From Pedobacter sp. (GTDB taxonomy: Bacteria; Bacteroidota; Bacteroidia; Sphingobacteriales; Sphingobacteriaceae): DNA of 64,000 bases. The notes beneath the pieces were generated by a model. The model searched no databases and was not told the origin of the DNA. It saw nothing but the letters and a program-made list of their open reading frames with translations. The stretch is from contig JAZQRI010000083.1 in assembly GCA_045629455.1 (NCBI GenBank), positions 6,536-70,535 of the forward strand. Direction: 5' to 3'. Positions 5,021 through 63,198 of the stretch are shown in pieces. Numbering within the stretch: position 1 is the stretch's first letter; the number at the start of each line of letters is the position of its first letter. The translations under genes were made by a program, and so were the position numbers.

Positions 5021-5021
5021 A

Positions 5022-6206
5022 TTATTTTGCTAGTCTTATGCCGCTGAACATCCAGTTCAGGTCAGCATGAAAAAAATTCCGGTAACTCGGTCGGCTATGT
5101 CCTTCCGGAGTGGCTACAGACGCACCTCTAAGTACTTTCTGGTTGACCATGAATTTACCGTTGTATTCGCCGGCAGCGCCTTCTGCCCTCGTGAAACCAG
5201 GGTATGGCAGGTATGCACTTTCCGTCCATTCCCAAAGCTCACCCCAGGAGAATTTTCCGGAAGCCACTTCCCATTCGAATTCCGTTGCCAAGCGGCAGCC
5301 TTTCCACTGCGCATACGCCCATGCTTCGTAAAAACTGATGTGTGAGACCGGATCATCGCTTCTCAACGGCTGCAACCCAGACAGACTGTACCTGAAATGC
5401 TTCCCATCAATTATATACCAATACTTGGGTGCCTTAGCCTTACTCGTCTTTACCCAGTCCCAGCCTTCTGCATGCCAATAGCGGAAGTTTTCATAACCAC
5501 TATCGGCAATAAATTCCAGATATTCTGCGTTCGTCACCAGTCCGGCAGCTATTTGAGCCTTTTGCAAATAAACCTTATGCCTCCCCAGTTCATTATCAAA
5601 GTGAAAGCTACTGCCATTGTAACCAACTTCATAAACACCTTCTTCTATATCCACCCATCCCGTATCCTGCACCTTAAAGCTTTCCTCGACGTTCCGCGGG
5701 TAATATGCCGGGAAAAGAGGGTTATGACCCAGAATATACTTGATGTCATACCACAGGAGTTCCTGATGCTGCTGTTCATGGTTCAATCCCAGTTCCAAAA
5801 GTGTATTCAGCTCGTCAGATAGACCGCCATCTTCCAGAAAGTCCTGCATGGCCTTGTCAACGAAGTTTCGGTAGTTAAATACCTCATCAACCGTGGGTCT
5901 GCTCAGATTACCGCGGTCGGTCCGGATTACCCGTGCACCCAGTGTTTCGTAATAGCTGTTGAAAACATAATGGTATTCAGGATGATATGGTTTATAATCC
6001 TTTGCAAAGGGAATCAGAATAAACGTTTCAAAAAACCAGGTCGTGTGTCCAAGATGCCACTTAGGCGGACTTACATCAACCACTGGCTGTACCACATAAT
6101 CTTCTTTCTCCAGCGGAGCACATATGGCCACACTATGAGACCTAACCTGATTGTACTGCGCCAACAACGTTGCCTTAGATACCAGGACTTCTTCTAGTTG
6201 CTCCAT
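5022..6206 (-). CDS. egtB: Ergothioneine biosynthesis sulfoxide synthase EgtB (DinB-like plus FGE-sulfatase domains)
   Basis: N-terminal DinB-like region (PPKWHLGHTTWFFE...HEQQHQEL) and C-terminal FGE-like region (WEWTESAYLPYPGF...VLRGASVATP...RNFF). Confidence 0.85.
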   Translation of the reverse strand: MEQLEEVLVSKATLLAQYNQVRSHSVAICAPLEKEDYVVQPVVDVSPPKWHLGHTTWFFETFILIPFAKDYKPYHPEYHYVFNSYYETLGARVIRTDRGNLSRPTVDEVFNYRNFVDKAMQDFLEDGGLSDELNTLLELGLNHEQQHQELLWYDIKYILGHNPLFPAYYPRNVEESFKVQDTGWVDIEEGVYEVGYNGSSFHFDNELGRHKVYLQKAQIAAGLVTNAEYLEFIADSGYENFRYWHAEGWDWVKTSKAKAPKYWYIIDGKHFRYSLSGLQPLRSDDPVSHISFYEAWAYAQWKGCRLATEFEWEVASGKFSWGELWEWTESAYLPYPGFTRAEGAAGEYNGKFMVNQKVLRGASVATPEGHSRPSYRNFFHADLNWMFSGIRLAK

Positions 6207-12027: not shown

Positions 12028-12124
12028 TTTCTGTGGGTTAAGCACAGCAAACAAGAGAATAAGAAAATGGTAATGCAGTTGAACAATTGCCCATTTCCAG
12101 CTTCAATCCCCGAAAGCTATGAAA

Positions 12125-12300
12125 TTTAGTGCAATAGGCAGGTCTTCTGACTTACTCCTGGCTTTCCTGCCTTCCCATCCATCGAAATGAACAGTGGCAT
12201 TGATTTGAAAAACCAATTTTGGAGCTTACAGCTGCGGGACAGTTACGGAATTACACCGTATTCCCTTTTAATCTAAATTGTTGGTACAATCGAGAACCTA
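12125..12300 (-). promoter_or_regulatory. Cobalamin (B12) riboswitch
   Basis: The minus strand reads ...aaaagggaatacggtgtaattccgtaactgtcccgcagctgtaagc...aatgccactgtt...gggaaggcaggaaagccaggagtaagtcagaagacctgcc. It contains the GCCACTG core element and the B12 box (agtcagaagacctgcc). Confidence 0.85.
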
Positions 12301-12443
12301 AAGCGCTGCAAATGTATAACAATATAAGAAATGAGCAAATAATATTAACTTAGATTTACAACTCGGGGTTTAACGAACGGATCGCAGGTTTCTGATACGA
12401 AACAGCAGTCCTAAATCGCACCGTAGCTAATAAATAAACACCA

Positions 12444-50400: not shown

Positions 50401-50664
50401 AGCGAAAGTACAGCCATAAAATATCCAGAACTATTTGAAGTTTTTCCTAAGCAACAGGTTAAAGAGCAGATCAAGGAAATCCTTAAAGCCGCTCTAACCG
50501 GCAAATCCAAACATGGGACTTATCGGCAAAGCCCCAGGCTTTTGCCCGGACACCTGATAAAGGTTATTGAAATTGCTGGCCTTACGTCCCAAATACCAAA
50601 ACTTTTGGAAAGCTATAGAACTTTTATGTCGTTGTCCATGTACCAACTTCCTCTAAAAAAATAA
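47431..50664 (+). CDS. NACHT-like STAND NTPase with N-terminal Cap4/DUF4297-like PD-(D/E)xK nuclease domain (Avs/bNACHT-like)
   Basis: N-terminus FGYTYQHYVACLLL...ISLETD...FDDINI...YCLQLKD (GxxYQ plus E/D...QxK pattern). Walker A GKPGVGKSH; Walker B LIIDGLDHVE; VIVLSRP (TSRP-like); about 650-aa helical C-terminus. Confidence 0.7.
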   Translation: MKYALFGYTYQHYVACLLLAMMDVERKIQKISLETDVNHNFDDINISCEHKNYCLQLKDIEGLTTDEITIADGNIKISGKNHKLSSEENLLFFKQIKLRPDCRILGLPAQLKDGVYLISLNRAQVEQRISKLYYLDKHRRQLINRFLSERLDERKLEIDLRNIPAIATFDTRLTDKSIRVARKILNFEQILHIEGKPGVGKSHLVTQLENQFHPVVLYRFWISNQDKKYEERLRYTEFQADVIKKLFFDQKERSVNDIFSALEKDKPTLIIDGLDHVENYRPQDLRSYLDFITRASEKTRVIVLSRPLRTSTVWKKQVLRNWSGPQTRKILKSLYHLSSYLVSEQIHKLTEGYPILVKYIAEQYKKEGVVPSFSQLDTVNSYYDQLFSNETGKRALALFLCTRGFIMHEEIDLFLGEYSGSLIKEFLEDRPYLFERKLNRISLYHDSLVTYLRNSAPEYQVLQGKVNSIVSQSMLKGETRFQSRIGHFDLDKSSVLRIVRYYSSIANFKKLMTGLLDFEAVREFYPQLLDLLENIGASHLTISQYYDLALILNLVARDHFSTFNGFYYTFTKAMIKYGYAPEYITSNGYLFAMMMYIKTQDASLLFNVKADGLYDVSRFYQELETEIKEERDYFEYQSKPFKRSLMVKSLADTHNLDYGENLEHILVNNCLFPQPGQKFASLRESVSIYLSGQEERAAMILSMELENKNWDHWRFGWRLEKVKSTLLALGDQPQDNDYLNLSLRDYLKQNSEKGAFKLWPEILAYIRLSLHRNRKMDLESISEFWTKYHQRHDYSLRSISYILRSLEDLGEIDWKDSLELIMDIQTKSEKGYRGLTAEYFGLHDPAFMVKAIKEFGTGQLKVSWFQLEHEYLEALPKYVYDIEMGEQIHYHRTNMQMDISVIENLLSSSKLKFLKRDLSDYRYTIMIKDGDPREAMLKQHKIRYKIYAQEKYKLERSPEERFDEGWFEPSNRHLVLERGLTPSEAALLLESESTAIKYPELFEVFPKQQVKEQIKEILKAALTGKSKHGTYRQSPRLLPGHLIKVIEIAGLTSQIPKLLESYRTFMSLSMYQLPLKK

Positions 50665-50769
50665 ATACCACAGCTATTTAAGCTGCATTGAACAACTGCA
50701 TTATTGATCATCCCTTTGCAGATAAACTGGTAAATTGCACATCTAATAACCAAATACACTACGCTCACT

Positions 50770-53700
50770 ATGAACTGGAACGCATTCAATACCCATAACG
50801 ATAGTTACGAAAATGCATTCGAAGCATTTTCCATACAACTTTTCGAACACTATCTCAGACGCAGCTATCCAGCAGGCTTGAGGGAGTTTTATGCAATTTC
50901 GGGCTCTGGGGGAGATGGCGGCGTGGAGGCATACGGCGTAGTGCCCACCGGGACGATAGGCCTGCAGGCGAAATGGTTCACCACAGCTCTTAGTGCCAAT
51001 CAGATCAAAAACATCAAGGAGTCGATATTAACTGCCAAAAAAATCCGTCCGGAACTAACTGAATATATCATCACTCTTCCCAAAAGGGTGAATTCAAAAA
51101 AAGGTGTTAAGGGGAAAAAGGTGGGAAGCAGCGAACAAGACAGGTTGCAGGAAATGGAAAATGTGGTTCTACAACAGCACCCCACTCTTAAGATTACCTG
51201 GTGGTTTGAGAACCTACTGTTAGAACAGTTGGAATATCCAGATAGTAGATCCATAGAATCCTACTGGTTCGGACGAAATTTTCTTACCCTTGATTTCCTA
51301 AGAAGCAAATTCAGAGACCAAAGGGAACACCAATGGCTCAAAACCAGGTATGCCCCGGATCTAAATGCTGAAGGAGAGATCGCTGCGCACTATGACGAAC
51401 TTTGCCTAGGTCAACATTTCAAATCAGAACTCTCGGATAAGCTACAATCTTTAGGCAATAAACTTGCTTCGGCCTCCAGTCTTATTGATGCCTACATCAA
51501 AGGACAGGATCGTACACCATCGGATGAAGAAACTAACCTGAGCAATCAGCTTAAATGTATAATAATCTGCATTATAGAGTATCAGAACAACATCGAGCTA
51601 CTAGCCACTGCCCTTCAAAAGGGATCGGTGCCCGAACTCCTGGTCCTTCCCGAATACGATCTATGGAAACCAAAAATGGCCGTAGAACGCATAAGGCCCA
51701 CCAATATCCAGATTCCTGTTGCAAAATCATTGGCAAGGGCTTTGGAAAAAATCCATAAGATACATTTGCCACAATACCTCTGCGCATTGAGAGATGAGAT
51801 GAGCAGAAAAATTAAAATATTTTTTGGGTCAGCGGGAACAGGTAAAACCCAAGGACTGGCGCACTGCACCTCCAAACATCTAGACGGAAATCTACCAGCG
51901 ATAATCATTCCGGCCAAAGGAACTCCCTGCGGAAATTGGACGCAAATTCTATCTAGCCAGCTCGAGCTGCCCGAAAGATCTGCTCAAGAGATCTTCACCG
52001 CTTTGGAATCGCTCGCGGTATCTGAACTTAGAAAGGAAGCTGAGCTTAATCGATCGAAAAGAAGCCATTCTGCAACAGTATTAATATCCGTTGATGGGCT
52101 CGAAGAAGATATAAGACATTGGGAAAAATGGTATGATAGGATTAACGATACCCTAGGTATCACCAACACCTTTCCACGAATCAGGTTTATGTTCTCTGCC
52201 AGGGAATATTTCCGCGACAACGACAAAATACCAGAAAGAGTACCATTCGAACAAGTTCAACTGCCGAGCGAGGGAGATATCTCTATAAATGATGCGGCGG
52301 AGATATATTTTTCTCCAATGCATTTCAACATAAGCAACGTAAACTCCGATGTGATGAAGCGTATTGAAAGCCTGTATGCTTTAAAGCTATTCTGCGAGCG
52401 CTACCGCGGAGCAGATCTTCTCTTTACCGAAGATGTACACACCGACCTCCGCTCACTTTTATCGGATAAAATCGCCGCGCTGGAAATTGAGTTTAAAAAT
52501 GGAAGCGGCCGCCGATTCTCCTCCACCTCTGCCCCAGTCGCCGATACTCTCCTCGCAATATCTCAACAATTTTTTACCGAAATAAGCCTTGAACACTCGA
52601 AACTTTTAAGCTTGCTAAACGAGCAAATCCGTTCGCTTTCCTATACGGAATTAGAAGTAATGTTAGAATTTTTATCCGAACGTGGGATATTGACCGCAGG
52701 TATGCACGAGACCATAGGGATAATCAAAAAGAGGGAGATATTTTACTACGTATCCTACCAATCCATCATCGAGCATGTCATTTCCGAAGATATCTTTATC
52801 AAGCTCGTAAATGGCGACATTCAGTCCATTCCCCCAATTGCCCTGAGCGGTATCGCAGCCCCCTTAAGGCTTGGCCATGTTGATATCGAGGCGGCATTTC
52901 CAAACGAGACAATGACCGAGGCGATTTTAAAGCGGGTATTTTTGAGGACGGGTAAACTGGTCGGTCAGGACGGATATTTGGCGACGGGTATGGGCCAGGA
53001 AGAAATTATAGCCATGCAAATGGCGGTGCTAGCTGTGGCGGACAATCTGCATGGCCCGAAATATGAAAATATGGTAAAAAATTGGCTGGCAATGGGGCAC
53101 TGGCACCAACAGCAAGTTTTTATCAGGGTCATTAGGCCGGCCAGCAAAATCGGAGCTTATTTTAATCCGCTATGGCTGCACCAGCATCTTCTGTCTATTC
53201 CAACAGTCTACGAAAGGGACATATTTTTATGGGCGGATAGATCCGTTAGAGCACATGACAACTATGATGGATTTGAAGCGGCAATATATCCTTTCGATGG
53301 TTATGACACCTCTCTCTACCCATTTGACCATTTCGACCAGGAACCATTAATATATGCCTGGTGCCTATCCTCGCCCAGCCGAAACATTCGAAAAGAACTG
53401 CGCTCCTCACTGCTCAACTGGGCAAACCTCAACCTGACCGATTGGATAAATTTACTGGACCTAATGAAGGACCAACAAGATAGCCAGATATTGGAGGACC
53501 TTGCTTCGGTATCTTTGGGTTTATCCTACACCTTAAAAGAAACCAGTGATGTACTGCTGCTATCTAATTGGGTCCTGGCCAATATTTTCGCAAATCCTGA
53601 TACTTATCTGAGCAGTAGGATACGCGAGGGATTCAGAGGAATTATAGACAGAGCGACCGAGCTAGGTGCACTTTCAAAGGAGGATGGAGCTCTAGCTAGG

Positions 53701-55056
53701 CCCAAAAAGCGGAAGGCACAATTACTGCCATTGGCAAAAGATGCTTTGGAAAAAAACAGCGAACAGTTCTTTCCAGTTGTTTCTGATCTTGCATGGTACG
53801 TCCTGGAAGACAGCTACGAGAACTTCTTAGATGAGAGCTATCATGCGGAGGAGGAAGATCAACTAAGCGATCAAATAAAATTCCTAATGCAATATTCTGC
53901 TGTCTACAAACTGGATAGTTTAACTCCTGCGCTATGGGCTCAAGCGGCCGTAATTGCCCAGATCAGAAATAAATTCGGCTATCTCGAAAAAAGCGGAAAT
54001 GTTGTTTTTCTGCCTTCTCATGGGGAAAAAGGCCTGATTATGTACTTTGCGGAGAAATATATCTGGCAGGCGGTCTACTCTGTACAGGGCTACTTATCGG
54101 AACAGCTGCCACTTATCGAACAGGAACGCTATATTAAGTCCTACCGTGAAATCGTAAATGTTTCAAATCCTGCTGAGGGGCTGATGCACAATGGAGATCT
54201 GTTATCTTCCCTCGACGATATTCCAGGGCCTGGATGGCTTATTCCTGAAAACCTAGTAAATTCGGTAACCATTGAACCAAAATTAATCAAAAAGGGTATA
54301 GATAAGGAGATTGATGAGCCAGATGGGCTTAACCTACATTTATGGTTAGAATACAGTGATAAATCAGCGAAGATATGGAGACAGCTGTTTAGCCAAACTA
54401 CTTTGGAGGACAAAAACCAGGTGGTCTATGGCAGGGTCACGGCAAATGCGGCTCTAATGCCGCCAGATGCGTTCCAACGATTTCTCAACATTTTACGTAC
54501 TTCTCCCGAGGACCTACACTTTTTAAGCAGCCTAGACACCCTGCTTGCCACACCGTCGGGCAGCTTTTATCAGAACCCAATCGACATAGTGGATGGAAAG
54601 GATATTGGCGAAGATAAACCAGATACATTACTAGAGATCGATGGGGAGGAATCCAACCTATACCACTCCATCGTTAAGGTCGTGCAATCAGAGAACAATA
54701 ATGAAAAGACCTACCATCTTCCCTCCAGAATCGTACGAGAACTTCTGGGAATAAAGCAACTAAAAGGGAAAAGACTAAAGGATTATATGGGCGAGACGAT
54801 TGGCTTTGTCACTGAAATGGGCAGACCGGGCGAAGAGAATTCTCAGCGATTGACCTTCGTCACGGCAGACATCCTTGACGTGGGATTAGCGGACACCGGC
54901 TATCAACTATTATGGTTCGTGGAGGTCTTTAAAAGAACTACACTCACTACAGAAAAGGATGGCCTATTTCTACGCAGGACACGGAAGTATTTAGTCTGGA
55001 TGGAAGATAATTTATACAAACAGCATAAGTTCTGGGACGGAGAGTCATCCAATTAA
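50770..55056 (+). CDS. Giant (1428 aa) P-loop STAND-like NTPase with N-terminal Mrr-type restriction-endonuclease-like domain
   Basis: FEAFSIQLFE...SGSGGDGGVEAYG...IGLQAKWF (Mrr_cat-like D...E.K pattern). Walker A FFGSAGTGKTQ; Walker B VLISVDGLEED; about 950-aa C-terminal region with no motif I recognise. Confidence 0.65.
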   Translation: MNWNAFNTHNDSYENAFEAFSIQLFEHYLRRSYPAGLREFYAISGSGGDGGVEAYGVVPTGTIGLQAKWFTTALSANQIKNIKESILTAKKIRPELTEYIITLPKRVNSKKGVKGKKVGSSEQDRLQEMENVVLQQHPTLKITWWFENLLLEQLEYPDSRSIESYWFGRNFLTLDFLRSKFRDQREHQWLKTRYAPDLNAEGEIAAHYDELCLGQHFKSELSDKLQSLGNKLASASSLIDAYIKGQDRTPSDEETNLSNQLKCIIICIIEYQNNIELLATALQKGSVPELLVLPEYDLWKPKMAVERIRPTNIQIPVAKSLARALEKIHKIHLPQYLCALRDEMSRKIKIFFGSAGTGKTQGLAHCTSKHLDGNLPAIIIPAKGTPCGNWTQILSSQLELPERSAQEIFTALESLAVSELRKEAELNRSKRSHSATVLISVDGLEEDIRHWEKWYDRINDTLGITNTFPRIRFMFSAREYFRDNDKIPERVPFEQVQLPSEGDISINDAAEIYFSPMHFNISNVNSDVMKRIESLYALKLFCERYRGADLLFTEDVHTDLRSLLSDKIAALEIEFKNGSGRRFSSTSAPVADTLLAISQQFFTEISLEHSKLLSLLNEQIRSLSYTELEVMLEFLSERGILTAGMHETIGIIKKREIFYYVSYQSIIEHVISEDIFIKLVNGDIQSIPPIALSGIAAPLRLGHVDIEAAFPNETMTEAILKRVFLRTGKLVGQDGYLATGMGQEEIIAMQMAVLAVADNLHGPKYENMVKNWLAMGHWHQQQVFIRVIRPASKIGAYFNPLWLHQHLLSIPTVYERDIFLWADRSVRAHDNYDGFEAAIYPFDGYDTSLYPFDHFDQEPLIYAWCLSSPSRNIRKELRSSLLNWANLNLTDWINLLDLMKDQQDSQILEDLASVSLGLSYTLKETSDVLLLSNWVLANIFANPDTYLSSRIREGFRGIIDRATELGALSKEDGALARPKKRKAQLLPLAKDALEKNSEQFFPVVSDLAWYVLEDSYENFLDESYHAEEEDQLSDQIKFLMQYSAVYKLDSLTPALWAQAAVIAQIRNKFGYLEKSGNVVFLPSHGEKGLIMYFAEKYIWQAVYSVQGYLSEQLPLIEQERYIKSYREIVNVSNPAEGLMHNGDLLSSLDDIPGPGWLIPENLVNSVTIEPKLIKKGIDKEIDEPDGLNLHLWLEYSDKSAKIWRQLFSQTTLEDKNQVVYGRVTANAALMPPDAFQRFLNILRTSPEDLHFLSSLDTLLATPSGSFYQNPIDIVDGKDIGEDKPDTLLEIDGEESNLYHSIVKVVQSENNNEKTYHLPSRIVRELLGIKQLKGKRLKDYMGETIGFVTEMGRPGEENSQRLTFVTADILDVGLADTGYQLLWFVEVFKRTTLTTEKDGLFLRRTRKYLVWMEDNLYKQHKFWDGESSN

Positions 55057-55141
55057 TTCGGGCGTTTCTACGTATACGGTTTTCTATTGAAATTAGCTGT
55101 ATATTTTGCATTTATGTTATGGATTATATTTTATACTGGTG

Positions 55142-56602
55142 TTATTCCTGTTTTAAAAAATAATCCTGCATGATGTCATTGAATTTTTTGGATTTAGCCA
55201 ACCCAGAAGTGTGCATAATCTTCTTAGGATCAAAGAAGTCAACTTTATATTTTTTTGTAGCTTCCATTGTTTCGATTAACGTTCTCGAATCGTCACTAAA
55301 TCCGCCCGTCGACCAATATTGAAAATGGATTTCTTTATCATTGAGCGAAGGTTGGTCCAATATCCATTTTCTGATCACAGCAATTTTTTCATTTCTCCAG
55401 ATTTCTATATCAGCCTTTATAATCGGGTAATTATAACCTTTACATTCTGCAACTACCACTTTATTTCCATAGACTGCATAAACATCCATCTCTCTTTGAA
55501 GATGTTCATGGCTGATCAACTTGCCAATATCCAGTGTTCCACATCCCATCTTGGAATGATAATAGCCAACCGCCATTTCAAAAAGGTCCCCACGCAAATT
55601 GTTTGTCTTTCCGCTAACAAGCGATTTAAGCTTTTTTATCAGGTCAAGAAACTGCTCTGGATTTTTTTTCAAGATGGCTCCCGCGTTAACTACTGAATTG
55701 ACCAGTGCTTTCATTAATGCCAAATACTCATCTCCGAACAATTGGTTCACAAATCCGACGATTATCCCATTGCTCTTTAGATAACTGAGCGCCTCAGGAT
55801 CCACGGAATCTACTATCAAGAAAGGCAGAAATTGTGGCGTGTTTTTTTGGGCCTTCAGTATATCCACTTTCTTAATAAAAAACTCTACCTGATCAGGAGT
55901 AATGTTATTATTAACCAAAATATCCGCCACCACATACCCGGGGGCAATTTTTTCATCTTTCCAGCGCGTAAGTGTACTCACATAAGACGGCGCTACGAAT
56001 GCAAAGCAAAAATTTCCGAAAGGAGAGTAAAAACTTGACGCATCATAACTAGTTAAGGCCATTTTCCGTGCCCAATCATTAAACTGGATCAACAATGTAT
56101 CCTTTACCAATTGAATACCCATACTAAGCCTCTGATTTGAAATAACCTGGCTTCTGCTTTCATTCAATGAAATATTTTCATCTATGTAACGATTTAAAAG
56201 CTCAAGAGATTTCAACTTCTCGATTGCCGAGTCAAACGTTAGGTGCCCTTTTACATTGCTGATAGGATTTACAGAATAAGCAGCTAGCTGCTCCGAGGGG
56301 AGAGACCCTCGATGAAACTCAAGCGCATTTAGGATATAATTGTATTGTTTGGCGTCAGATTTAATCGCCGCTCTTAAACCTTCCGAGAATTCAACCGAAT
56401 TGTAATCATCTTTTATGTAAAAAAGCGTCTGGCGGTTTGCGAAATAACCTGTCAACCGAAAGATGTTCTCATCCTTGGTTCTGGAAATTTGCTGACGTAG
56501 GGCGTCGTCACTTTGCATCCACCCGGCCAGTCGGAGTTCTTTGATGATCTGACCGGTTAAAATGGGGCCCTTAGATCTAATGATTTTTTTTATCGATGTC
56601 AC
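55142..56602 (-). CDS. Hypothetical protein: N-terminal wHTH-like segment plus C-terminal PD-(D/E)xK nuclease-fold
   Basis: C-terminus LRGDLFEMAVGYYH...REMDVYAV...VVVAECKGY (FE...D...E.K restriction-endonuclease-like pattern). GTG start at 56602. Convergent with the 1428-aa gene. Confidence 0.5.
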   Translation of the reverse strand: MTSIKKIIRSKGPILTGQIIKELRLAGWMQSDDALRQQISRTKDENIFRLTGYFANRQTLFYIKDDYNSVEFSEGLRAAIKSDAKQYNYILNALEFHRGSLPSEQLAAYSVNPISNVKGHLTFDSAIEKLKSLELLNRYIDENISLNESRSQVISNQRLSMGIQLVKDTLLIQFNDWARKMALTSYDASSFYSPFGNFCFAFVAPSYVSTLTRWKDEKIAPGYVVADILVNNNITPDQVEFFIKKVDILKAQKNTPQFLPFLIVDSVDPEALSYLKSNGIIVGFVNQLFGDEYLALMKALVNSVVNAGAILKKNPEQFLDLIKKLKSLVSGKTNNLRGDLFEMAVGYYHSKMGCGTLDIGKLISHEHLQREMDVYAVYGNKVVVAECKGYNYPIIKADIEIWRNEKIAVIRKWILDQPSLNDKEIHFQYWSTGGFSDDSRTLIETMEATKKYKVDFFDPKKIMHTSGLAKSKKFNDIMQDYFLKQE

Positions 56603-56898: not shown

Positions 56899-57468
56899 AT
56901 GGACTTATCTTGTATCAATGATATTCTTCACGTGCAGATTCCATCCTTGCTACGCCAGGAAATGATCTCTGACTGGTACCGATCAGAAGCAGGAAAGATT
57001 GCAAGGGTCCTGACCGTGACAGACAAAAAATATTCATTAGCACTCAATACACCGTATAGCGACAAGCTGAAATACTTTGATCTGAATATATCAAATTGCG
57101 TCCATCAGTATTTTAACGAATTCAGCGATAGATTCTGGACCTCGCAGAATACCGATCACAAAAAGTTTTTAGTAGACAAGTATCTAAACCGAGAAGTGGT
57201 CCAGAAAATCCAGGATACCGCTCATGTTATCATTAGCAAAAATCTTCAATGGGAAAACCACAATAAGCCAGAACAACTGAAAAATAGAGAAGTAATTTTT
57301 ATTCTTCAATCCTTAAAGTTCAATCTGATATGGCTATACCTGGAGATAAAAAAATTAGTTGAGCATGCCGTTAATGATGGATATCAGACTCTCGAAACAT
57401 TGCTTGCAGAGCATTTTCACGAATACGACTGCTCATCGCCACATATAAAGGAAAACCAAGAATTTTAA
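56899..57468 (+). CDS. Hypothetical 189-aa protein, first gene of the pAgo operon
   Basis: ATG start; ends 14 nt before the next gene. No TM segment or motif recognised. Confidence 0.5.
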   Translation: MDLSCINDILHVQIPSLLRQEMISDWYRSEAGKIARVLTVTDKKYSLALNTPYSDKLKYFDLNISNCVHQYFNEFSDRFWTSQNTDHKKFLVDKYLNREVVQKIQDTAHVIISKNLQWENHNKPEQLKNREVIFILQSLKFNLIWLYLEIKKLVEHAVNDGYQTLETLLAEHFHEYDCSSPHIKENQEF

Positions 57469-57482
57469 CCTAATTTTAATGC

Positions 57483-58703
57483 ATGGTTAAAATATTTCGG
57501 CTCTTAGTAATTATCCTAGCAATAATTACTGTATTTATAACGATCATCTTCTTAGTTATTGTATGGAAGAACTTCACCTTCATAGGTTCAGGCGCTGTAT
57601 CTTGGGAGCACACCTCGCAAGTCTCAGACTTTTTCGGAGGGGTCATCGGCACATTTTTATCCGCCATGGGTTTTATCCTAATATATTTGAGTTTCAACTC
57701 GCAGACAGAGAGCCAAAATGACCAGAAAAATCAGTTTCTTCAATCCCAGATCGAAACTCGCTTCATCGAACTGATCAAGATCCATAAGGAAACCGTTGCC
57801 AATCTCACCTATGACAGAGAGATAACCTTACAGGGGCAAAAAGTGATTGATTTTATTGTGGGGCAGTTTGAATCATCTTTTGTTGAAGTAGCGGCATTTT
57901 TCACCAGCCTTGAGTCTGAACAATGCTACAAACCAACAGTATTACAAACGATCAACGGAATTTTATCCCTGCGAACAATTAGCCCTATTCTTTTAGCCCA
58001 AATAGATATTGCTTATTCCATTGTATTTTTTGGAATGGCCAAAGATGATATTGAATCCCTGAGGCACTTACTTAAAAGGCATTACAATGATGATCTGATC
58101 GATGAAATACTTGAGTTTATCAAGCTAAAATCACTCGGCAAAGAAAACCTGTCTAAATGGAAGATCATTTTAGAAAGCGGCCTCACTAGGGAAAATATCA
58201 ACTCGACCATAGCGGAATATCGCCAAAACGGCACCATTGCAAGAAGGCAATTCGATGCAGCGTATCAGGACGCCTTTGAAACGCTACTGAAAAAGGAGTC
58301 ATCGGATAAATACTATGGGGGACATCAATATAAGTTAGGCCATTATTTCAGGCACCTATTTCTGACCGTGAAATACATCAACGACCAATCAATCATTGGT
58401 TATAAGGATAAATATAACTACATAAAAATACTAAGGGCCCAAATTTCTACAATTGAACAGTATCTGATATTCTATAATTCACTTTCATTTATGGGTAGGG
58501 CCTGGGAACTGGAGCATGTCAACACGACCAGTGATGAAGCTATCAAAAATAAATGGCTTTTTACAAAATACAATTTCATTAAAAATACACCTAATCTGTC
58601 TCAACTTGGCGTAATAAAACTGGACGAATTCTATCCAGACCTGCAGTTCGAGTTCACCGGACAACCTGAAAAAAGAGCCGAACTAGGCCAGTTATTCAAA
58701 TAA
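57483..58703 (+). CDS. Two-TM membrane protein resembling the putative phage abortive infection (AbiC-like) family; candidate pAgo effector
   Basis: Hydrophobic helices at aa 5-28 and about 48-71 (SDFFGGVIGTFLSAMGFILIYLSF), a Q-rich linker, FIELIKIHKE, and later GHYFRHLFLTVKYI. It lies 27 nt upstream of the pAgo gene. Confidence 0.6.
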   Translation: MVKIFRLLVIILAIITVFITIIFLVIVWKNFTFIGSGAVSWEHTSQVSDFFGGVIGTFLSAMGFILIYLSFNSQTESQNDQKNQFLQSQIETRFIELIKIHKETVANLTYDREITLQGQKVIDFIVGQFESSFVEVAAFFTSLESEQCYKPTVLQTINGILSLRTISPILLAQIDIAYSIVFFGMAKDDIESLRHLLKRHYNDDLIDEILEFIKLKSLGKENLSKWKIILESGLTRENINSTIAEYRQNGTIARRQFDAAYQDAFETLLKKESSDKYYGGHQYKLGHYFRHLFLTVKYINDQSIIGYKDKYNYIKILRAQISTIEQYLIFYNSLSFMGRAWELEHVNTTSDEAIKNKWLFTKYNFIKNTPNLSQLGVIKLDEFYPDLQFEFTGQPEKRAELGQLFK

Positions 58704-58730
58704 AATTTCAAATTAACACCTCAAATACCA

Positions 58731-60755
58731 ATGGATTTTTCAACCAATATCATTCCCTTTCGATTACCTATACAACTACAGCCATTCTACTTCTCCTTGG
58801 ACGAAAGTAGTCAAGCTCACAGATTACATCGAAATGTAATCTCGGATAAGATAGCAACTGTGCTACAGTTAGATCCGGAAATAGAATTTGTCTACACCAC
58901 CTTTGACATCGAATGCGTTGGCTACACTTTGATTGAGCTAGACCTCGCTCAAGAAAAACCTTCATTTGCCAAGAGATATTATAATTACTTAATCCAAAAA
59001 TATTTCCAGGATCTGGGCATTCTGGTGAAAAAAAACTTTGTACGGGACGTTCAAATTTGGATACTTCAACAAGCACCCTCTGAATATACCACTTTTGACC
59101 GTTTTACAATTCGTACTCAATTTAATAAGATCACTACCAGCGGCGAATTGCTGATTGCATTTGATGGAGTCTCGAAGGTATTGAAGAAAACAGTAAATGA
59201 GGCCACGGAAATCCAACCAGAAAATCTGCGGTATGTGCTTCAAGAGAATAAACTACTCCGGTATCATGATCCGGAGGATTATCAGCTTGTGGATTACAAT
59301 CTATCTTATCCGGTTATGGGTCTGAATATCTATAGAGATTTAAATCTTCCCCTGCCCGTTTTGGATAAAACCAACAAATACAAAAAGTTTATCCCCAAGA
59401 TTTCCAGTTTCGTTAAAAAATATCTAGATCAGGACGGCTTTCGGTCATTAGTAAACCTTTCACAAAAAACTTTTTATAAGCTTCCAGATACATTAATCGG
59501 AACCGTTAAGCAAGAAAGCAACAACTTGCTCTTTGGAAACAATCATGTAGATTCCGACGCGCGACAGGGAATCAAAAAAGGCCCATATAAAAAAACACCC
59601 TACACAAACGTCCATTTCTTTTTTATATATCACAAGGATTCAACTCTTTCAGCAAAGACGCTCCATACCTATTACAAAGAGGGTATCGAATTTTTTAAAG
59701 GCCTCGAAAGTATCGCTAAAGTTAGATACCATACAGAAAAAAATTTCAGTATCGTTTTTGATAATTTAGCCGATCCAATTGCTGAAATCCAAGAGGCTCT
59801 TGATTCGAAGGACTGGAAGCCTGACGTGGAATATTTCGCCATTTACATTAGCCCATTTGACAAACATGAACCCGATAGGCAAAAGCGCCAGCTTTATTTT
59901 AGCCTGAAAAAACTGTTGCTTGAAAAAAAGATCCATTCTCAGGTCATTGTCGAGAATAAAATGCTGGAAAAGGGTGCAGAGTATAAATACAGCATGATCA
60001 ATATTGCCGTAGCTGCACTGGCTAAACTGGGAGGTGTCCCCTGGAGAATTCAATCTTCACTCAAGAACGAACTGGTCGTTGGAGTTGGCGCTTTCAAAAG
60101 TCCGGATACCGGCCTGCATTATGTCGGAAGCGCATTCTCCTTCCAGAATAATGGGGAATTCAACGAATTCGATTGCTTTCTGAAAACGGACACGGATATT
60201 TTAGCGGGAGCAATCCAGGAGGCAATTATCAAGTTCACATCTGTAAACAAGAATCCACAGCGCCTCATAATCCATTTTTACAAGGACATGAGCTATAAAG
60301 AAATCAAACCAATATTGACAAAACTTTATAATCTAGGCCTAGCTATTCCGGTTTTTATCATAACCATCAATAAGACCGAATCTAGTGACATTATCGCTTG
60401 GGACAATGACTGGAATGGGCTGATGCCTACCAGTGGAACCTATATTAGGGTTGGAAAAAATGAATATTTATTATTCAACAATACTCGATATGGTCAAGGT
60501 CATAAAGCGTCGGACGGTTTTCCTTTTCCAGTTAAAATGAAGGTCAGCTGCACGGACGCTGAGCAATTAAGTCCACTTATCGTAAGGGAATTGATTGACC
60601 AAGTCTATCAATTCAGCAAGATGTATTGGAAATCAGTCAAGCAGCAACACCTACCTGTGACGATAAAATATCCAGAAATGGTAGCTGAGATCTTCCCGCA
60701 TCTAGGGGTACTTACCTTGCCAGAGTTTGGGAAGGACAAACTTTGGTTTCTCTAG
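58731..60755 (+). CDS. Prokaryotic Argonaute (MID-PIWI), catalytically inactive, shortened N-lobe (long-B-like)
   Basis: MID pocket pattern Y389/K393/Q404/K432 (LYFSLKK..IHSQ..INIAVAALAKLGGVPW). PIWI strands VVGVGAF, RLIIHFYKD and PVTIKYPEMVAE lack acidic residues at the DEDX positions. Confidence 0.8.
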   Translation: MDFSTNIIPFRLPIQLQPFYFSLDESSQAHRLHRNVISDKIATVLQLDPEIEFVYTTFDIECVGYTLIELDLAQEKPSFAKRYYNYLIQKYFQDLGILVKKNFVRDVQIWILQQAPSEYTTFDRFTIRTQFNKITTSGELLIAFDGVSKVLKKTVNEATEIQPENLRYVLQENKLLRYHDPEDYQLVDYNLSYPVMGLNIYRDLNLPLPVLDKTNKYKKFIPKISSFVKKYLDQDGFRSLVNLSQKTFYKLPDTLIGTVKQESNNLLFGNNHVDSDARQGIKKGPYKKTPYTNVHFFFIYHKDSTLSAKTLHTYYKEGIEFFKGLESIAKVRYHTEKNFSIVFDNLADPIAEIQEALDSKDWKPDVEYFAIYISPFDKHEPDRQKRQLYFSLKKLLLEKKIHSQVIVENKMLEKGAEYKYSMINIAVAALAKLGGVPWRIQSSLKNELVVGVGAFKSPDTGLHYVGSAFSFQNNGEFNEFDCFLKTDTDILAGAIQEAIIKFTSVNKNPQRLIIHFYKDMSYKEIKPILTKLYNLGLAIPVFIITINKTESSDIIAWDNDWNGLMPTSGTYIRVGKNEYLLFNNTRYGQGHKASDGFPFPVKMKVSCTDAEQLSPLIVRELIDQVYQFSKMYWKSVKQQHLPVTIKYPEMVAEIFPHLGVLTLPEFGKDKLWFL

Positions 60756-60800
60756 GGAGAGATAATTCTTTCCGTTACTTTTAAAGCAATTTTTCGAATA

Positions 60801-60917
60801 TTAACAGATTGGAGTAGCCATTGTATCCAAAAAATCATAATTTTTCACAGCTTTTTCAAGTTGCTTAAGCTGGATGAATTCCGCTCTGCTAACTTTTTGT
60901 CCATTGTAATAACACAT
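60801..60917 (-). pseudogene. 38-codon remnant resembling the N-terminus of an SOS-response-associated peptidase (SRAP/YedK-like)
   Basis: MCYYNGQKVSRAEFIQLKQLEKAVKNYDFLDTMATPIC*: Met-Cys start as in SRAP (catalytic Cys2) with a Bacteroidota-style MCYY opening. It ends about 45 nt from the pAgo stop, whereas full-length SRAPs are about 200 aa or more. Confidence 0.4.
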
Positions 60918-60921
60918 AATC

Positions 60922-61170
60922 TTATCTCCTTTTAGCACGGATATGCTCAGCAATCAATTTCCCAATTTGTTCGGCTTCGATCTGTCTTCCCTATGGTATG
61001 GAAGTCCAGAATTTCTGGTCACGCAGGCCAATGCCTATCGCAATTAACAGCGGCTTTTTTCAGCCTTTGAAATCAACATGAAACACCCTGTTGGACCCGA
61101 CCTCATGTTCTGCGACAGTAATCTGTTGTCCTTCCAGTTCTAGCTCAAATGGTGGTTCAAGTTCCCTCAT
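60922..61170 (-). pseudogene. Stop-interrupted paralogue of the 99-aa ORF at 8969-9268
   Basis: MRELEPPFELELEGQQITVAEHEV...FHVDFKG*KKPLLIAIGIGLRDQKFWTSIP*GRQIEAEQIGKLIAEHI. This compares with MEPFNIKLPVSGQTATLTILPAEE...KDWTLVPEEE...RSIGAEIQS. Two in-frame stops. Confidence 0.5.
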
Positions 61171-61923
61171 TATTAAAATTAAAGAAAAATCTAAGAATCA
61201 AAAAGGGTCAAACACCTAAAGATTAGGCACAAAGAAAAACGGGGAATAATCATGATGACGATTCCCCGTTCTAAATTAACGCTCTCATACATAAAGACGC
61301 TGGTAGAGCAGATTTATTGCAAACGCAACTTAATTTTTTTCTCGATTTCTTTCCGCTGAGTCGAGCCGTCCTTTTTAGCATCCTTGACGGCGGCAGATTT
61401 CACGGTCAATTTATCTGCTTCGTATTGATCTCATGTGGTTGGTTGGAAACCGAATTCCTTCAACTTTGCTTCCTCTTGGTATAATCTTAATTTCTAGGTG
61501 AATGATGCCATCAAAACAACATTAAATCAGGATGGTTTAAAAAATCTGCCGCCTAAAAGCACGTGGGAAAGATGGCCTTTTTAAATGAGAACGCTTTATA
61601 ACCTCTATCTTGACCTACCGCTGGAGATGTTTTGCAGATTATTATCTTCTGCGGCTTTAATGTTAGGGTGCTCAACATCCTAGACTGATGGCCTTACATA
61701 CTGGTCTTGTTTTAACCCAGCTTCCCTTAGAATATTTCGGGAATGTTGGTACTTAGAATAATGTTACCATCCTTAAGGTCCGGTAATATCTTGTTGACAA
61801 TCGCGTCTCTAATTATAGTTATAGCATTTGAATGGGCGAGCACTGTCAAAAGGAACCGAAAAGGACAGTGTAATAAATGAATCCCCAGCTATGGTGATTT
61901 CAAAATGATATTAATGATTTTCC

Positions 61924-61962
61924 ATAAATAGTCAAGTTTAATAGAAAAACTTGACTATTTAT
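61924..61962. repeat. Perfect 16-bp inverted repeat (ataaatagtcaagttt / aaacttgactatttat), 7-nt loop
   Basis: Read directly. It is immediately followed by a second hairpin, agagtagaagat-tctaa-gtcttccactct (61963-61991). Confidence 0.85.
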
Positions 61963-62411
61963 AGAGTAGAAGATTCTAAGTCTTCCACTCTATCTTACCA
62001 TTTATTGGATACAATAGCCGTTCTCGAATTCCAGAAGCAACCCAATATTTAATTTATAACCAAAGAATTCTGCTCCGTTACATATTTGTTACTGTTCTTA
62101 ATAAAAAAACAGACGAGCTCATGAACTGACATTGTTCCTGTTAGAATTATTGATTTGCCTATTCCTATACCAATCTGTAAAAGTTCGAACTCCGCTTTGA
62201 TATCCTTTACCTTTTGGAATTATGCCTCGTATGCCCGTTTAACTCTGGCGATACCGACTTCCCTCCCGTAATCAGGGAATGTAACCATCTAATACCATCC
62301 TACCTTTGAGACCGAGTGATACCCATCGGGTGCATCTAAATCTACAAGCATGGAGAGGATGGGACAACCTTGTAGCATTTTTTTTTCTCCACTACCTCCT
62401 CCTTAGCTTCT

Positions 62412-62444
62412 CCTTACCTTTCCTATACCTTTGCCTTACCTTTT
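62412..62444 (+). repeat. Three 11-nt phased TACCTTT / CCTTACC units upstream of the 62554 gene
   Basis: ccttacctttc-ctatacctttg-ccttacctttt. The middle unit TACCTTTG fits the Bacteroidota -7 promoter consensus TAnnTTTG. Same core motif as at 9334-9399. Confidence 0.6.
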
Positions 62445-62553
62445 GGTAGCCGAAAGCTAGGGCGGAGCCTTGCAAAAAGTGCCGCATCTACAAACTTGAT
62501 TTATCGCTGTATTTTGTTTAAGTTTAATCTAGTAAACACTAACGCATCTCGAA

Positions 62554-63198
62554 ATGGCAACAATTAAAAAAGGAATATTGGGTCCGGTTACGGGCTCGAT
62601 AGGAAAAGTGATCGGCTATGAACGACTAGGTACGCCCTGCATCAGAATTAAAGCGGAACCGAAAGAACAAAACTTTACGTCCAAACAAAGGGCGCACCAG
62701 TTGCGCGTCAGGCTGGCCAACAGTTTCATCAACCCTTCAAAGGCCTTCATCAACATTGGTTTTTCTTTAAGCACCACTGGCGGCCAGACCGCGCACAACG
62801 TAGCTATGGCGCATGCCATAAGAAATGGCACCAAAGGTGAGTTCCCGGAACTAGAACTGGATTTTGAAAACCTGCTGGTTTCGGATGGGGAACTTCCAGG
62901 AGCGGTGAATCCGCAGGTAGAACTGTCAATCAATTCGAATCTGAAATTCTCCTGGGATTACGACAATAGCCTGGAGTTTGCCCTAAGAAAGGATCAGGTC
63001 ATGCTCCTCGCCTATTCGCCGGAAACAAACAGATCCTTCTACACCATTGGTGGCGCAAAAAGATCTGCGGGTCAGGATATCTTAGAATTGTACACCGAGC
63101 TTCAGCCCGAAGTATTTGAGACCTATATCGCTTTCATTTCAGAAGACCGGAAATTGATATCCAGAAGTACCTACACAGGAAAGGTTATCATAAGCTAA
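62554..63198 (+). CDS. Hypothetical protein, DUF6266-like
   Basis: The N-terminus MATIKKGILGPVTGSIGKVIGYERLG resembles my recollection of Bacteroidota DUF6266 proteins. No functional motif. Confidence 0.45.
   Translation: MATIKKGILGPVTGSIGKVIGYERLGTPCIRIKAEPKEQNFTSKQRAHQLRVRLANSFINPSKAFINIGFSLSTTGGQTAHNVAMAHAIRNGTKGEFPELELDFENLLVSDGELPGAVNPQVELSINSNLKFSWDYDNSLEFALRKDQVMLLAYSPETNRSFYTIGGAKRSAGQDILELYTELQPEVFETYIAFISEDRKLISRSTYTGKVIIS

What the first reader, a model, noticed from the sequence alone, without database searches (positions are those of the whole stretch)
58731..60755. pAgo keeps a 5'-end binding pocket pattern but lacks the DEDX tetrad and most of the N/PAZ lobe
Numbering is from the ATG at 58731. 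LYFSLKK, IHSQ and LAKLGGVPW give Y389, K393, Q404 and K432, with 4/11/28 spacing. This is what I remember for the YKQK 5'-phosphate pocket of RsAgo-type long-B pAgos. Where active Agos have the first catalytic Asp (GxDV strand) this protein reads VVGVGAF (G453, nt 60087-60089). The HRDG-equivalent reads IIHFYKD and the C-terminal YAH/D-equivalent reads KYPEM. Only about 290 aa precede the MID domain, too few for full N, L1, PAZ and L2. This predicts a guide-binding sensor that does not slice and needs the neighbouring genes as effectors.
Basis: partly seen in the sequence, partly recalled or inferred. Interest (0 to 1): 0.65.

Follow-up and report, generated by a model that had tools for sequence, protein, structure and literature searches.

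The report
Inactive Argonaute with membrane-protein partner genes
This gene encodes a non-cutting bacterial Argonaute of an already catalogued Bacteroidota family, and the only unusual point is that in this sub-lineage it always travels with an AbiC-type membrane protein and a small unknown protein that may act as its killing arm.

Summary
It is a long-B prokaryotic Argonaute. Y389/K393/Q404/K432 and the C-terminal LWFL are invariant in 60 homologues and map onto the EcAgo and AfPiwi 5'-phosphate pocket. The catalytic positions read G453 / uncertain (E/D481?) / Y517 / E649, so slicing is very unlikely.

Two claims need correction. The fourth tetrad position keeps an acid (E649), and D519 is neither aligned to the tetrad nor conserved. 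The N lobe is not missing. The first 300 residues fold as a compact Argonaute N lobe with a small PAZ, about the same length as in EcAgo (308 residues before MID).

Ryazansky 2018 already lists this family as long-B, and PADLOC has a model for it. It occurs in at least 531 Bacteroidota species genomes. Family-wide it has no conserved partner gene, and its neighbours turn over very fast.

The window's sub-clade differs. A 189-aa protein, a two-TM AbiC/P-family protein and the pAgo form a cassette seen directly in five different genomic contexts. I found no paper reporting this pairing. Coupling to the membrane protein is plausible but unproven (about 0.45). Interest is moderate.

The parts
58731..60755 (+). 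Long-B prokaryotic Argonaute, 674 aa, catalytically inactive
   Evidence: ORF and translation. Pfam Piwi E=3.4e-15. PADLOC pAgo PDLC02385 matches full length at 2e-245. AF2 model has pLDDT 88.3. The best Foldseek hit is RsAgo, E=4e-29, TM 0.69-0.70.
58731..59579 (+). Compact N lobe (N, L1, small PAZ, L2), residues 1-283. The small PAZ maps to roughly residues 151-231 (nt 59181-59423).
   Evidence: The AF2 model of residues 1-300 (pLDDT 90.8) hits only Argonaute N lobes (MpAgo E=5.7e-7). Domain limits were transferred from Ryazansky Table S1 through a 703-aa homologue.
59580..60041 (+). MID domain, residues about 284-437, with the 5'-phosphate pocket: Y389 (59895-59897), K393 (59907-59909), Q404 (59940-59942), K432 (60024-60026)
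   Evidence: Positions. The four residues are invariant in 60/60 homologues. They align to AfPiwi and to EcAgo Y426/K430/Q441/K469.
60042..60752 (+). Inactive PIWI domain, residues 438-674. Tetrad positions are G453 (60087-60089), uncertain second position (E/D481 or none), Y517 (60279-60281) and E649 (60675-60677). The C-terminal L674 (60750-60752) ends an invariant LWFL.
   Evidence: hhalign against TtAgo, phmmer alignment to EcAgo, EcAgo tetrad and C-terminal carboxylate from PMC13535254, column frequencies.
57483..58703 (+). AbiC/P-family membrane protein, 406 aa, with two N-terminal TM helices (about residues 5-30 and 49-72). It is the candidate effector and ends 27 nt before the pAgo start.
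   Evidence: Pfam putAbiC scores 55 bits against a cut-off of 22. PADLOC AbiC and AbiP models also hit. Hydropathy. It is co-inherited with the pAgo in L001, L098, L088 and L093.
56899..57468 (+). 189-aa protein of unknown function, first gene of the cassette, ending 14 nt before the putAbiC gene
   Evidence: No family hit. Only 7 homologues turned up in the 5.8-billion-protein search. Four share a contig length with a putAbiC or pAgo homologue, one is the window's own protein, and two lie on short contigs I could not link. The alignment shows conserved, intact ORFs. It is weakly similar to the N-terminal part of the DUF6617 element gene.

Best explanation
The gene encodes a catalytically dead long-B Argonaute of a large Bacteroidota-specific family.

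Shown from sequence and structure: it has a complete but compact Argonaute fold. The MID pocket is intact (Y389, K393, Q404, K432), and the C-terminal Leu carboxylate would hold the Mg2+ that binds a guide's 5'-phosphate. The two Asp positions of the RNase H site are Gly and Tyr.

Inferred by analogy with its nearest solved relatives, RsAgo and EcAgo: it loads 5'-phosphorylated small RNA guides and recognises complementary invader DNA without cutting it.

Inferred from comparative genomics only: in this sub-clade the sensor is part of a three-gene cassette of a 189-aa protein, an AbiC/P-type two-TM membrane protein, and the pAgo. Target-bound pAgo would activate the membrane protein, possibly through the small protein. 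The cell would then lose membrane integrity and the infection would abort, in the manner of the SiAgo-Aga1-Aga2 and BPAM systems.

Roughly: inactive guide-binding long-B pAgo 0.9; RNA guide and DNA target 0.55; functional coupling to the AbiC/P protein 0.45.
For: Identity and fold.

Pocket and tetrad mapping.

Long-B placement: homologues from Aequorivita viscosa (703 aa) and Algoriphagus XAY3209 (699 aa), which are my loci L060 and L080 at 43% identity, are listed as 'longB, small PAZ, YK' in Ryazansky Table S1. The best sequence hits in the PDB are AfAgo, EcAgo and RsAgo.

Cassette: the same 184-189 aa, putAbiC, pAgo order with 7-40 nt gaps occurs in the window, L001, L098 and L088, at 71%, 70% and 57% pAgo identity. 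The flanks are unrelated in each case: an Avs2 island, SusCD plus a deaminase, FecR/sigma plus LRR, and integrases. Three more lineages are inferred from shared contig lengths.

The NJ trees of the pAgo and putAbiC proteins mirror each other within this clade.

The background rate of sharing the same upstream gene in this family is only 12% at 70-80% pAgo identity and 2.4% at 50-60%. Keeping the pair is therefore unusual.

Precedent for membrane effectors of inactive pAgos: PMC10620215 and PMC11788926.
Against: Most family members have no candidate effector. Their neighbours are complete restriction-modification systems upstream and Fur/RND metal-resistance cargo downstream. Even pAgos 97-100% identical to each other have different neighbours.

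putAbiC homologues at 46-48% identity stand alone next to restriction-modification genes with no pAgo. Lactococcal AbiC and AbiP work as single genes.

In L093 a putAbiC gene closest to a stand-alone one looks like a separate insertion between a DUF87 ATPase gene and the pAgo. The sister loci lack it. This fits an insertion hot spot as well as it fits functional affinity.

The cassette pAgos show no clade-specific indels. They carry only 7 conservative fixed substitutions relative to the rest of the family.

Tight gene spacing is not informative here, because unrelated cargo genes even overlap the pAgo stop codon.

No interaction, guide or phenotype data exist.
Confidence: 0.5

Rival explanations
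1. The pAgo works alone, as it must in most of its family, by RsAgo-like RNA-guided binding of invader DNA that blocks or destabilises it. The AbiC/P gene and the 189-aa gene are an independent abortive-infection module that landed in the insertion hot spot just upstream of the pAgo and has been co-inherited since.
For: There is no conserved partner across 80 genome loci, and neighbours turn over fast even between near-identical pAgos. Stand-alone putAbiC homologues exist. AbiC and AbiP act as single genes. L093 shows what looks like a separate putAbiC insertion. The cassette pAgos carry no clade-specific changes.
Against: The triad keeps together through five different flanking contexts and down to 57% pAgo identity. 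The family background for a shared upstream gene at that distance is 2-12%. Four of the seven 189-aa homologues share a contig length with a putAbiC or pAgo homologue, and none was seen outside the cassette.
Confidence: 0.35
2. The pAgo is mainly a gene of a Bacteroidota integrative element. It serves the element, for example by excluding competing plasmids or elements or by helping the element's replication, rather than host antiviral defence. The window holds a decayed remnant of such an element.
For: At least 16 of 80 loci have the BT4734-like_N (VirE_N) / DUF3987 primase module within 6 kb upstream. Integrase and DUF6617 genes lie nearby in 10-12 loci, and DUF6266 lies downstream in 13 loci and in the window. 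Near-identical pAgos occur in different species genomes. The 189-aa protein resembles the N-terminal part of DUF6617. The cassette region is 37.5-39.5% GC against 45% for the rest of the window.
Against: The window has no integrase or primase near the gene. The pAgo sits in the variable cargo zone among defence genes. No data point to a replication role, and an inactive Ago cannot resolve DNA.
Confidence: 0.1
3. The protein is still a nuclease that uses a non-canonical active site built from E/D481, E649 and other residues.
For: E649 is conserved in 59/60 homologues and E/D481 in 58/60.
Against: The positions of both metal-binding Asp residues are Gly (60/60) and Tyr/Phe (60/60). EcAgo has the same pattern (G492, E532, Q568, D700) and does not cleave its target by itself.
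Confidence: 0.03

Closest known systems
EcAgo of the E. coli BPAN system, and RsAgo (long-B pAgos with solved structures)
   Same: Same overall fold; RsAgo is the best Foldseek hit. The YKQK pocket has identical 4/11/28 spacing, and the C-terminal Leu would carry the Mg2+-binding carboxylate. The tetrad pattern is Gly / (Glu) / non-acid / acid. The PAZ is small, and about 300 residues precede MID.
   Different: Sequence identity is only about 15-16% over the structural alignment. The RsAgo equivalog model NF052569 scores 58 bits against a cut-off of 700. There is no bAgaN-type PD-(D/E)xK nuclease gene downstream; instead there are 1.8 kb without an ORF of 60 aa or more. The family is restricted to Bacteroidota.
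BPAM system (Elizabethkingia anophelis EaAgo + EabAgaM; Song et al. 2023, PMC10620215)
   Same: An inactive long-B pAgo from a Bacteroidota host sits next to a membrane protein, and cell death is the proposed output.
   Different: EabAgaM shows no detectable similarity to the window's membrane protein (E=0.72). EabAgaM has a C-terminal TM region and lies downstream of the Ago. Here the TM helices are N-terminal, the gene is upstream, and there is a third gene. The EaAgo N-terminal part is not detectably similar to this pAgo.
SiAgo-Aga1-Aga2 system of Sulfolobus islandicus (PMC11788926)
   Same: Three genes, an inactive Ago, and a separate membrane effector encoded upstream. The effector is activated only by the guide/target-bound Ago complex.
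   Different: SiAgo is MID-PIWI only and needs Aga1 as its N-L1-L2 surrogate. Here the N lobe is part of the Ago chain, so the 189-aa protein cannot play Aga1's role. Aga2 has a C-terminal TM region and is not an AbiC/P-family protein.
[quoted passage not shown] 2023
   Same: Many members of this family sit downstream of a BT4734-like_N (VirE_N) gene and a DUF3987 primase gene. Ryazansky's note that long-B operons often carry RND efflux genes matches the cargo seen here.
   Different: I could not check accession lists to prove that og_54's subclade is this family. The window's own locus has lost the VirE_N/primase module.
Lactococcal AbiC / AbiP (AbiC/P group)
   Same: The upstream gene passes the Pfam putAbiC threshold, hits the PADLOC AbiC and AbiP models, and has two N-terminal TM helices like AbiC.
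   Different: AbiC and AbiP act as single genes and have no known link to Argonautes. No paper in the searchable library links AbiC to Argonautes, and none mentions putAbiC or PF16872.

Membership tests
Argonaute/PIWI superfamily | PIWI (RNase H-like) domain preceded by a MID domain | tested here: met
   Pfam Piwi E=3.4e-15, residues 384-654. Foldseek E=4e-29 to RsAgo, and PIWI-clade, MpAgo, TtAgo and hAgo2 structures all hit.
Long pAgo (as opposed to short pAgo) | N-terminal lobe (N, L1, PAZ or reduced PAZ, L2) in the same polypeptide | tested here: met
   The whole model gives TM 0.69-0.71 normalised to the query against full long Agos. Residues 1-300 alone hit only Ago N lobes, with MpAgo at E=5.7e-7. 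EcAgo has a comparable 308-residue N lobe.
Long-B pAgo clade | Catalytic DEDX tetrad disrupted | tested here: met
   G453 aligns to TtAgo D478 and EcAgo G492. Y517 aligns to TtAgo D546 and EcAgo Q568. Both are non-acidic in 60/60 homologues.
Long-B pAgo clade | YK-type MID pocket for a guide 5'-phosphate | tested here: met
   Y389, K393, Q404 and K432 are invariant and map onto EcAgo Y426/K430/Q441/K469. The C-terminal LWFL is invariant.
Long-B pAgo clade | Reduced PAZ lacking the second subdomain | tested here: inconclusive
   Ryazansky Table S1 labels homologues as PAZ 'small'. The best N-lobe hit is MpAgo, which Ryazansky describes as having an incomplete PAZ. I did not do a residue-level superposition of the PAZ region.
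Long-B pAgo clade | Phylogenetic placement in the long-B branch of the MID-PIWI tree | tested here: met
   This is indirect. Family members from Aequorivita viscosa and Algoriphagus XAY3209 (L060 and L080, 43% identical to the window protein) are classed longB by Ryazansky. The top sequence hits in the PDB are AfAgo, EcAgo and RsAgo. I built no joint tree with long-A and short pAgos.
RsAgo equivalog (NCBIfam NF052569) | Score above the curated cut-off of 700 bits | tested here: not met
   58 bits.
BPAM system | bAgaM (og_100) homologue with a C-terminal TM region encoded directly downstream of the pAgo | tested here: not met
   There is no similarity to EabAgaM (E=0.72). The membrane gene is upstream and its TM helices are N-terminal. 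Downstream there is no ORF of 60 aa or more for 1.8 kb.
BPAM system | Cell death that requires both the pAgo and the TM effector | not testable with these tools
   This needs expression experiments.
SiAgo-Aga1-Aga2 system | Short MID-PIWI Ago plus a separate N-L1-L2 protein (Aga1) | tested here: not met
   The N lobe is fused to MID-PIWI in one 674-aa chain.
AbiC/P family (upstream gene 57483-58703) | putAbiC domain above the Pfam gathering score, plus one or two N-terminal TM helices | tested here: met
   PF16872 scores 55 bits against a cut-off of 22. PADLOC AbiC scores 1e-7 and AbiP 2e-6. Hydrophobic segments lie at about residues 1-39 and 49-72. Topology of AbiC and AbiP is from PMC13064643.

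The most novel reading that the evidence does not exclude
The 189-aa / AbiC-P / pAgo cassette is a new three-component Argonaute abortive-infection system. In it a complete long-B pAgo, after guide-directed recognition of invader nucleic acid, switches on an AbiC/P-family membrane protein. AbiC and AbiP have been known since the early 1990s but have no assigned mechanism. If the coupling is real, it would give the first defined trigger for an AbiC/P-type protein. It would also add a third, unrelated class of membrane effector to pAgo systems, and show a normally effector-less pAgo family recruiting an effector.
Probability: 0.35. Interest if true: 0.65.

Novelty: new variant of a known kind. 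Interest (0 to 1): 0.4.

Why it matters
The family is already in Ryazansky's 2018 catalogue and in PADLOC, so the protein on its own is not news.

Two other things are worth attention.

First, this very widespread Bacteroidota family (at least 531 species genomes) has, as far as I could find, never been studied experimentally. It usually has no co-encoded effector. That challenges the current view that inactive pAgos always rely on an adjacent effector.

Second, one sub-clade, including this window, carries a conserved cassette with an AbiC/P-type membrane protein and a cassette-specific small protein. I found no report of this pairing. If the three act together, it is a new kind of pAgo membrane-effector system and a handle on the unknown AbiC/P mechanism.

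Tried and rejected
1. I looked for a BPAM-type or BPAN-type effector downstream. The 1.8 kb after the pAgo (60756-62553) has no ORF of 60 aa or more. It has no remnant of any neighbour gene from 86 related loci (tblastn), no Pfam hit in the translated fragments I tried, and no Rfam family.

2. I tested whether the upstream membrane protein is a bAgaM homologue. It is not.

3. I tested whether the N-terminal 300 residues hide a non-Ago effector domain. Only Ago N lobes match.

4. I looked for sub-clade-specific insertions or substitutions in the pAgo that could mark a new interface. There are none of note.

5. I suspected a second pAgo copy, because another ORF of exactly 674 aa (6208-8232, minus strand) lies next to a 186-aa ORF. 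It is a PAS histidine kinase next to a PNPOx-like protein, so this is a coincidence.

6. Sigma-70 promoter and terminator scans gave counts at or below the shuffle expectation and are not informative for Bacteroidota.

7. There are no tRNA genes in the window that could mark an integration site.

8. One Foldseek job and its model were lost on the server and had to be re-run.
Full report
**The observation.** The ORF at 58731-60755 on the plus strand runs from ATG to stop and encodes 674 residues. They give Y389, K393, Q404, K432 and G453, with the G453 codon at 60087-60089. This is not a chance pattern. Pfam Piwi matches residues 384-654 at E=3.4e-15. A PADLOC pAgo model of exactly 674 positions matches end to end at E=2e-245. 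An AlphaFold2 model built on 60 homologues has mean pLDDT 88.3 and pTM 0.83. Its best match among solved structures is RsAgo (E=4e-29, TM 0.69-0.70 normalised to the query), followed by PIWI-clade, MpAgo, KmAgo, TtAgo and human Ago structures.

**The MID pocket.** In an alignment of 60 homologues that go down to 41% identity, Y389, K393, Q404 and K432 are invariant. So are the last four residues, LWFL. The phmmer alignment to AfPiwi pairs them with the residues I remember as its 5'-phosphate pocket (Y123, K127, Q137, K163; my own recollection of Ma 2005 and Parker 2005, with the alignment). The recent EcAgo structure paper names Y426, K430, Q441 and K469 as the residues that bind the guide 5'-phosphate. 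It also names the carboxylate of the C-terminal Leu731 as a ligand of the bridging Mg2+. The window protein has the same 4/11/28 spacing at a constant offset of 37. K432 is aligned directly to EcAgo K469, and the chain also ends in Leu. The pocket claim is confirmed.

**The catalytic site.**
- *First position.* A profile comparison with TtAgo (sequence taken from plasmid pTT27) puts TtAgo D478 on G453. The EcAgo alignment, with EcAgo's published G492/E532/Q568/D700, puts G453 on G492.
- *Third position.* TtAgo D546 falls on Y517, and so does EcAgo Q568.
- *Fourth position.* By extension of the last aligned block, TtAgo D660 falls on E649. EcAgo D700 also falls on E649.
- *Family conservation.* G453 is Gly in 60/60 homologues, residue 517 is Tyr or Phe in 60/60, and E649 is Glu in 59/60.
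- *Second position.* The glutamate-finger position could not be fixed. The two alignments disagree (A494 versus K485). A nearby E/D481 is conserved in 58/60 homologues.

The protein therefore has the same pattern as EcAgo: the two metal-binding Asp residues are replaced and the fourth acid is kept. EcAgo does not cleave its target by itself. 'Does not slice' stands. 'KYPEM lacks the YAH/D equivalent' and 'IIHFYKD is the HRDG equivalent' need the corrections above.

**The N lobe.** About 290 residues do precede MID. The conclusion that this is too short for N, L1, PAZ and L2 is wrong. EcAgo, a bona fide long-B pAgo, fits N (1-92), L1, a roughly 60-residue PAZ and L2 into 308 residues. A TM score of 0.69-0.71 normalised to the 674-residue query cannot come from MID-PIWI alone, which is 57% of the chain. 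A separate model of residues 1-300 (pLDDT 90.8) matches only Argonaute N lobes. The best is MpAgo (E=5.7e-7), which Ryazansky describes as having an incomplete PAZ.

**Classification.** Ryazansky et al. 2018 Table S1 lists members of this same family as 'longB', PAZ 'small', MID 'YK-putative'. Examples are Aequorivita viscosa WP_073217643 (703 aa) and Algoriphagus sp. XAY3209 WP_100626894 (699 aa). These correspond to my loci L060 and L080, whose proteins are 43% identical to the window protein. Transferring their domain limits through a 703-aa homologue gives PAZ at about residues 151-231, MID at about 284-437 and PIWI at about 438-653 in the window protein. The best sequence hits among solved structures are AfAgo, EcAgo and RsAgo, all long-B. 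The protein is not an RsAgo equivalog: it scores 58 bits against a cut-off of 700. The protein is thus a member of an already catalogued family, though I found no experimental study of it.

**Distribution and genomic context of the family.** A scan of one genome per species found at least 531 genomes with a relative. Nearly all of the 80 fetched are Bacteroidota. I called ORFs in these loci and clustered the neighbours (annotated).

- *Upstream genes.* The gene immediately upstream is very variable. It can be type I HsdR, type III Res, YgjP, RhuM, a DUF5655 protein, McrBC, a DUF87 ATPase, or a 96-aa HTH protein that follows a BT4734-like_N (VirE_N) and DUF3987 primase module.
- *Downstream genes.* These include Fur-like and AraC-like regulators whose start codons overlap the pAgo stop, followed by DUF6660, RND efflux and TonB-receptor genes. 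They also include GmrSD, NERD helicases and very large proteins.
- *Element genes.* Integrase, DUF6617, HTH_17, VirE_N and primase genes lie upstream in at least 10-16 of 80 loci. DUF6266 lies downstream in 13. Many copies therefore ride on an integrative element. This probably corresponds to the og_54 (VirE_N) long-B subclade that Song et al. 2023 left uncharacterised. The RND genes match the unexplained efflux association noted by Ryazansky.
- *Turnover.* Pairs of pAgos that are 90-100% identical share the same upstream gene in only 16 of 61 comparisons. The figure is 12% at 70-80% identity and 2.4% at 50-60%.

Many members, for example those with primase, HTH, pAgo, Fur and RND genes in that order, have no plausible effector gene at all. 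For the family as a whole, the statement that the pAgo 'needs the neighbouring genes as effectors' is not supported.

**The window's sub-clade is different.** Upstream of the pAgo lie a 189-aa ORF (56899-57468) and a 406-aa ORF (57483-58703), with gaps of 14 and 27 nt.

- *The membrane protein.* The 406-aa protein passes the Pfam putAbiC threshold (55 bits against 22) and hits the PADLOC AbiC and AbiP models. It has two N-terminal hydrophobic helices, the topology described for lactococcal AbiC.
- *Where the triad recurs.* The same three genes in the same order occur next to pAgos that are 71%, 70% and 57% identical (L001, L098, L088). The flanks are unrelated each time: an Avs2-type island in the window, SusCD plus a deaminase, FecR/sigma plus an LRR protein, and integrases. 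Three further lineages are inferred from matching contig lengths among the hits for all three proteins.
- *The 189-aa protein.* It has only seven homologues in the 5.8-billion-protein search. Four share a contig length with a putAbiC or pAgo homologue, one is the window's own protein, and two lie on short contigs I could not link. It is conserved as an intact ORF and has no family assignment. It shows weak similarity to the N-terminal part of the DUF6617 element gene.
- *Co-divergence.* Rough NJ trees of the pAgos and the putAbiC proteins mirror each other inside this clade.

Against the very fast neighbour turnover in the rest of the family, this retention is the signature of a module.

**Evidence against functional coupling.**
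- putAbiC homologues at 46-48% identity stand alone next to restriction-modification genes, with no pAgo.
- AbiC and AbiP act as single genes in Lactococcus.
- In L093 a putAbiC gene whose closest relative is a stand-alone copy sits between a DUF87 ATPase gene and a pAgo. The sister loci L095 and L097 lack it, so it looks like an independent insertion at a hot spot.
- The cassette pAgos show no clade-specific indels and only seven conservative fixed substitutions.
- The membrane protein is unrelated to the BPAM effector EabAgaM (E=0.72). Its gene order and TM topology also differ from both BPAM and SiAga2.
- No paper in the searchable library links AbiC with Argonautes, and none mentions putAbiC or PF16872.

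**Most likely mechanism.** With high confidence, this is a guide-loading, non-slicing long-B Argonaute. By analogy with RsAgo and EcAgo it probably uses 5'-phosphorylated small RNA guides to recognise invader DNA (inference). I put the chance that the target-bound pAgo in this sub-clade activates the AbiC/P membrane protein, perhaps through the 189-aa protein, at about 0.45. The result would be an abortive-infection response. The main rival, at about 0.35, is that the pAgo works alone, as it must in most of its family, and the two upstream genes are an independent Abi module.

**Limits of this analysis.** Gene calling in the neighbourhood census was a simple longest-ORF procedure. The trees are NJ on BLOSUM distances. 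Three of the cassette lineages rest on matching contig lengths, not on inspected DNA. I could not run multimer predictions or a joint phylogeny with the published pAgo set.

**Verdict.** The protein itself is an ordinary member of a catalogued long-B family. The AbiC/P cassette and the effector-less, element-borne lifestyle of the family are the points worth following up.

Noticed in passing
window 60756-62553: The 1.8 kb directly downstream of the pAgo has no ORF of 60 aa or more on either strand. It has no Rfam family, no Pfam hit in the translated fragments I tried, and no remnant of any neighbour gene seen in related loci. Its GC content is 38.5%. It may be decayed cargo, but it is unexplained.
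   Followed up: partly
window 47431-56602: A defence island lies just upstream of the cassette. It holds a 1077-aa STAND/AAA NTPase (47431-50664), a 1428-aa Avs2-like protein (50770-55056; PADLOC Avs2 E=3e-51, but far below the NCBIfam equivalog cut-off), and a 486-aa minus-strand ORF (55142-56602) with only a weak C-terminal CARF_PDDEXK-type hit.
   Followed up: partly
window 62554-63198: A DUF6266 protein of 214 aa (Pfam E=1.8e-31). The same family lies downstream of the pAgo in 13 of 80 related genome loci. The window's locus may therefore share the right-hand end of the integrative element, although the integrase and primase are absent.
   Followed up: partly
related loci, e.g. L024/L025, L020/L025, L041/L043: pAgos that are 97-100% identical at the protein level occur in genomes assigned to different species, and apparently to different orders. 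Their upstream or downstream genes differ. This points to very recent horizontal transfer and a highly active cargo hot spot on either side of the pAgo.
   Followed up: partly
related loci, e.g. L025 8034-8492, L049 9094-13470: In 12 loci a Fur-family regulator gene starts within a few bases of the pAgo stop codon (gaps from -4 to +2). DUF6660, RND efflux and outer-membrane factor genes, or TonB receptor genes, follow it. This metal-resistance cargo probably explains the puzzling RND-transporter association of long-B pAgos reported in 2018.
   Followed up: partly
window 56899-57468 versus L003 897-1922: The cassette's 189-aa protein shows weak tblastn similarity (E from 1e-12 to 1e-5) to the N-terminal half of DUF6617 proteins. 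These are encoded right after the integrase in the related integrative elements.
   Followed up: partly
window 56899-62553: The cassette and the ORF-free stretch have 37.5-39.5% GC, against about 45% for the first 46 kb of the window. This is consistent with horizontal acquisition.
   Followed up: no
window 12120-12316 (minus strand): A cobalamin riboswitch (Rfam RF00174, 112 bits) lies upstream of a TonB-dependent receptor gene (10156-12054, minus strand).
   Followed up: no
window 4082-6206 (minus strand): Adjacent genes for a histidine-specific methyltransferase (Methyltransf_33) and a DinB_2 plus FGE-sulfatase protein. This is the EgtD/EgtB pair typical of ergothioneine synthesis.
   Followed up: no
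L093 3523-4761, compared with L095 and L097: A putAbiC gene is inserted between a DUF87 (HerA-like) ATPase gene and the pAgo in one lineage. It is absent from the sister lineages. Its closest relative is a stand-alone putAbiC next to a type I restriction-modification system in Solitalea lacus.
   Followed up: yes
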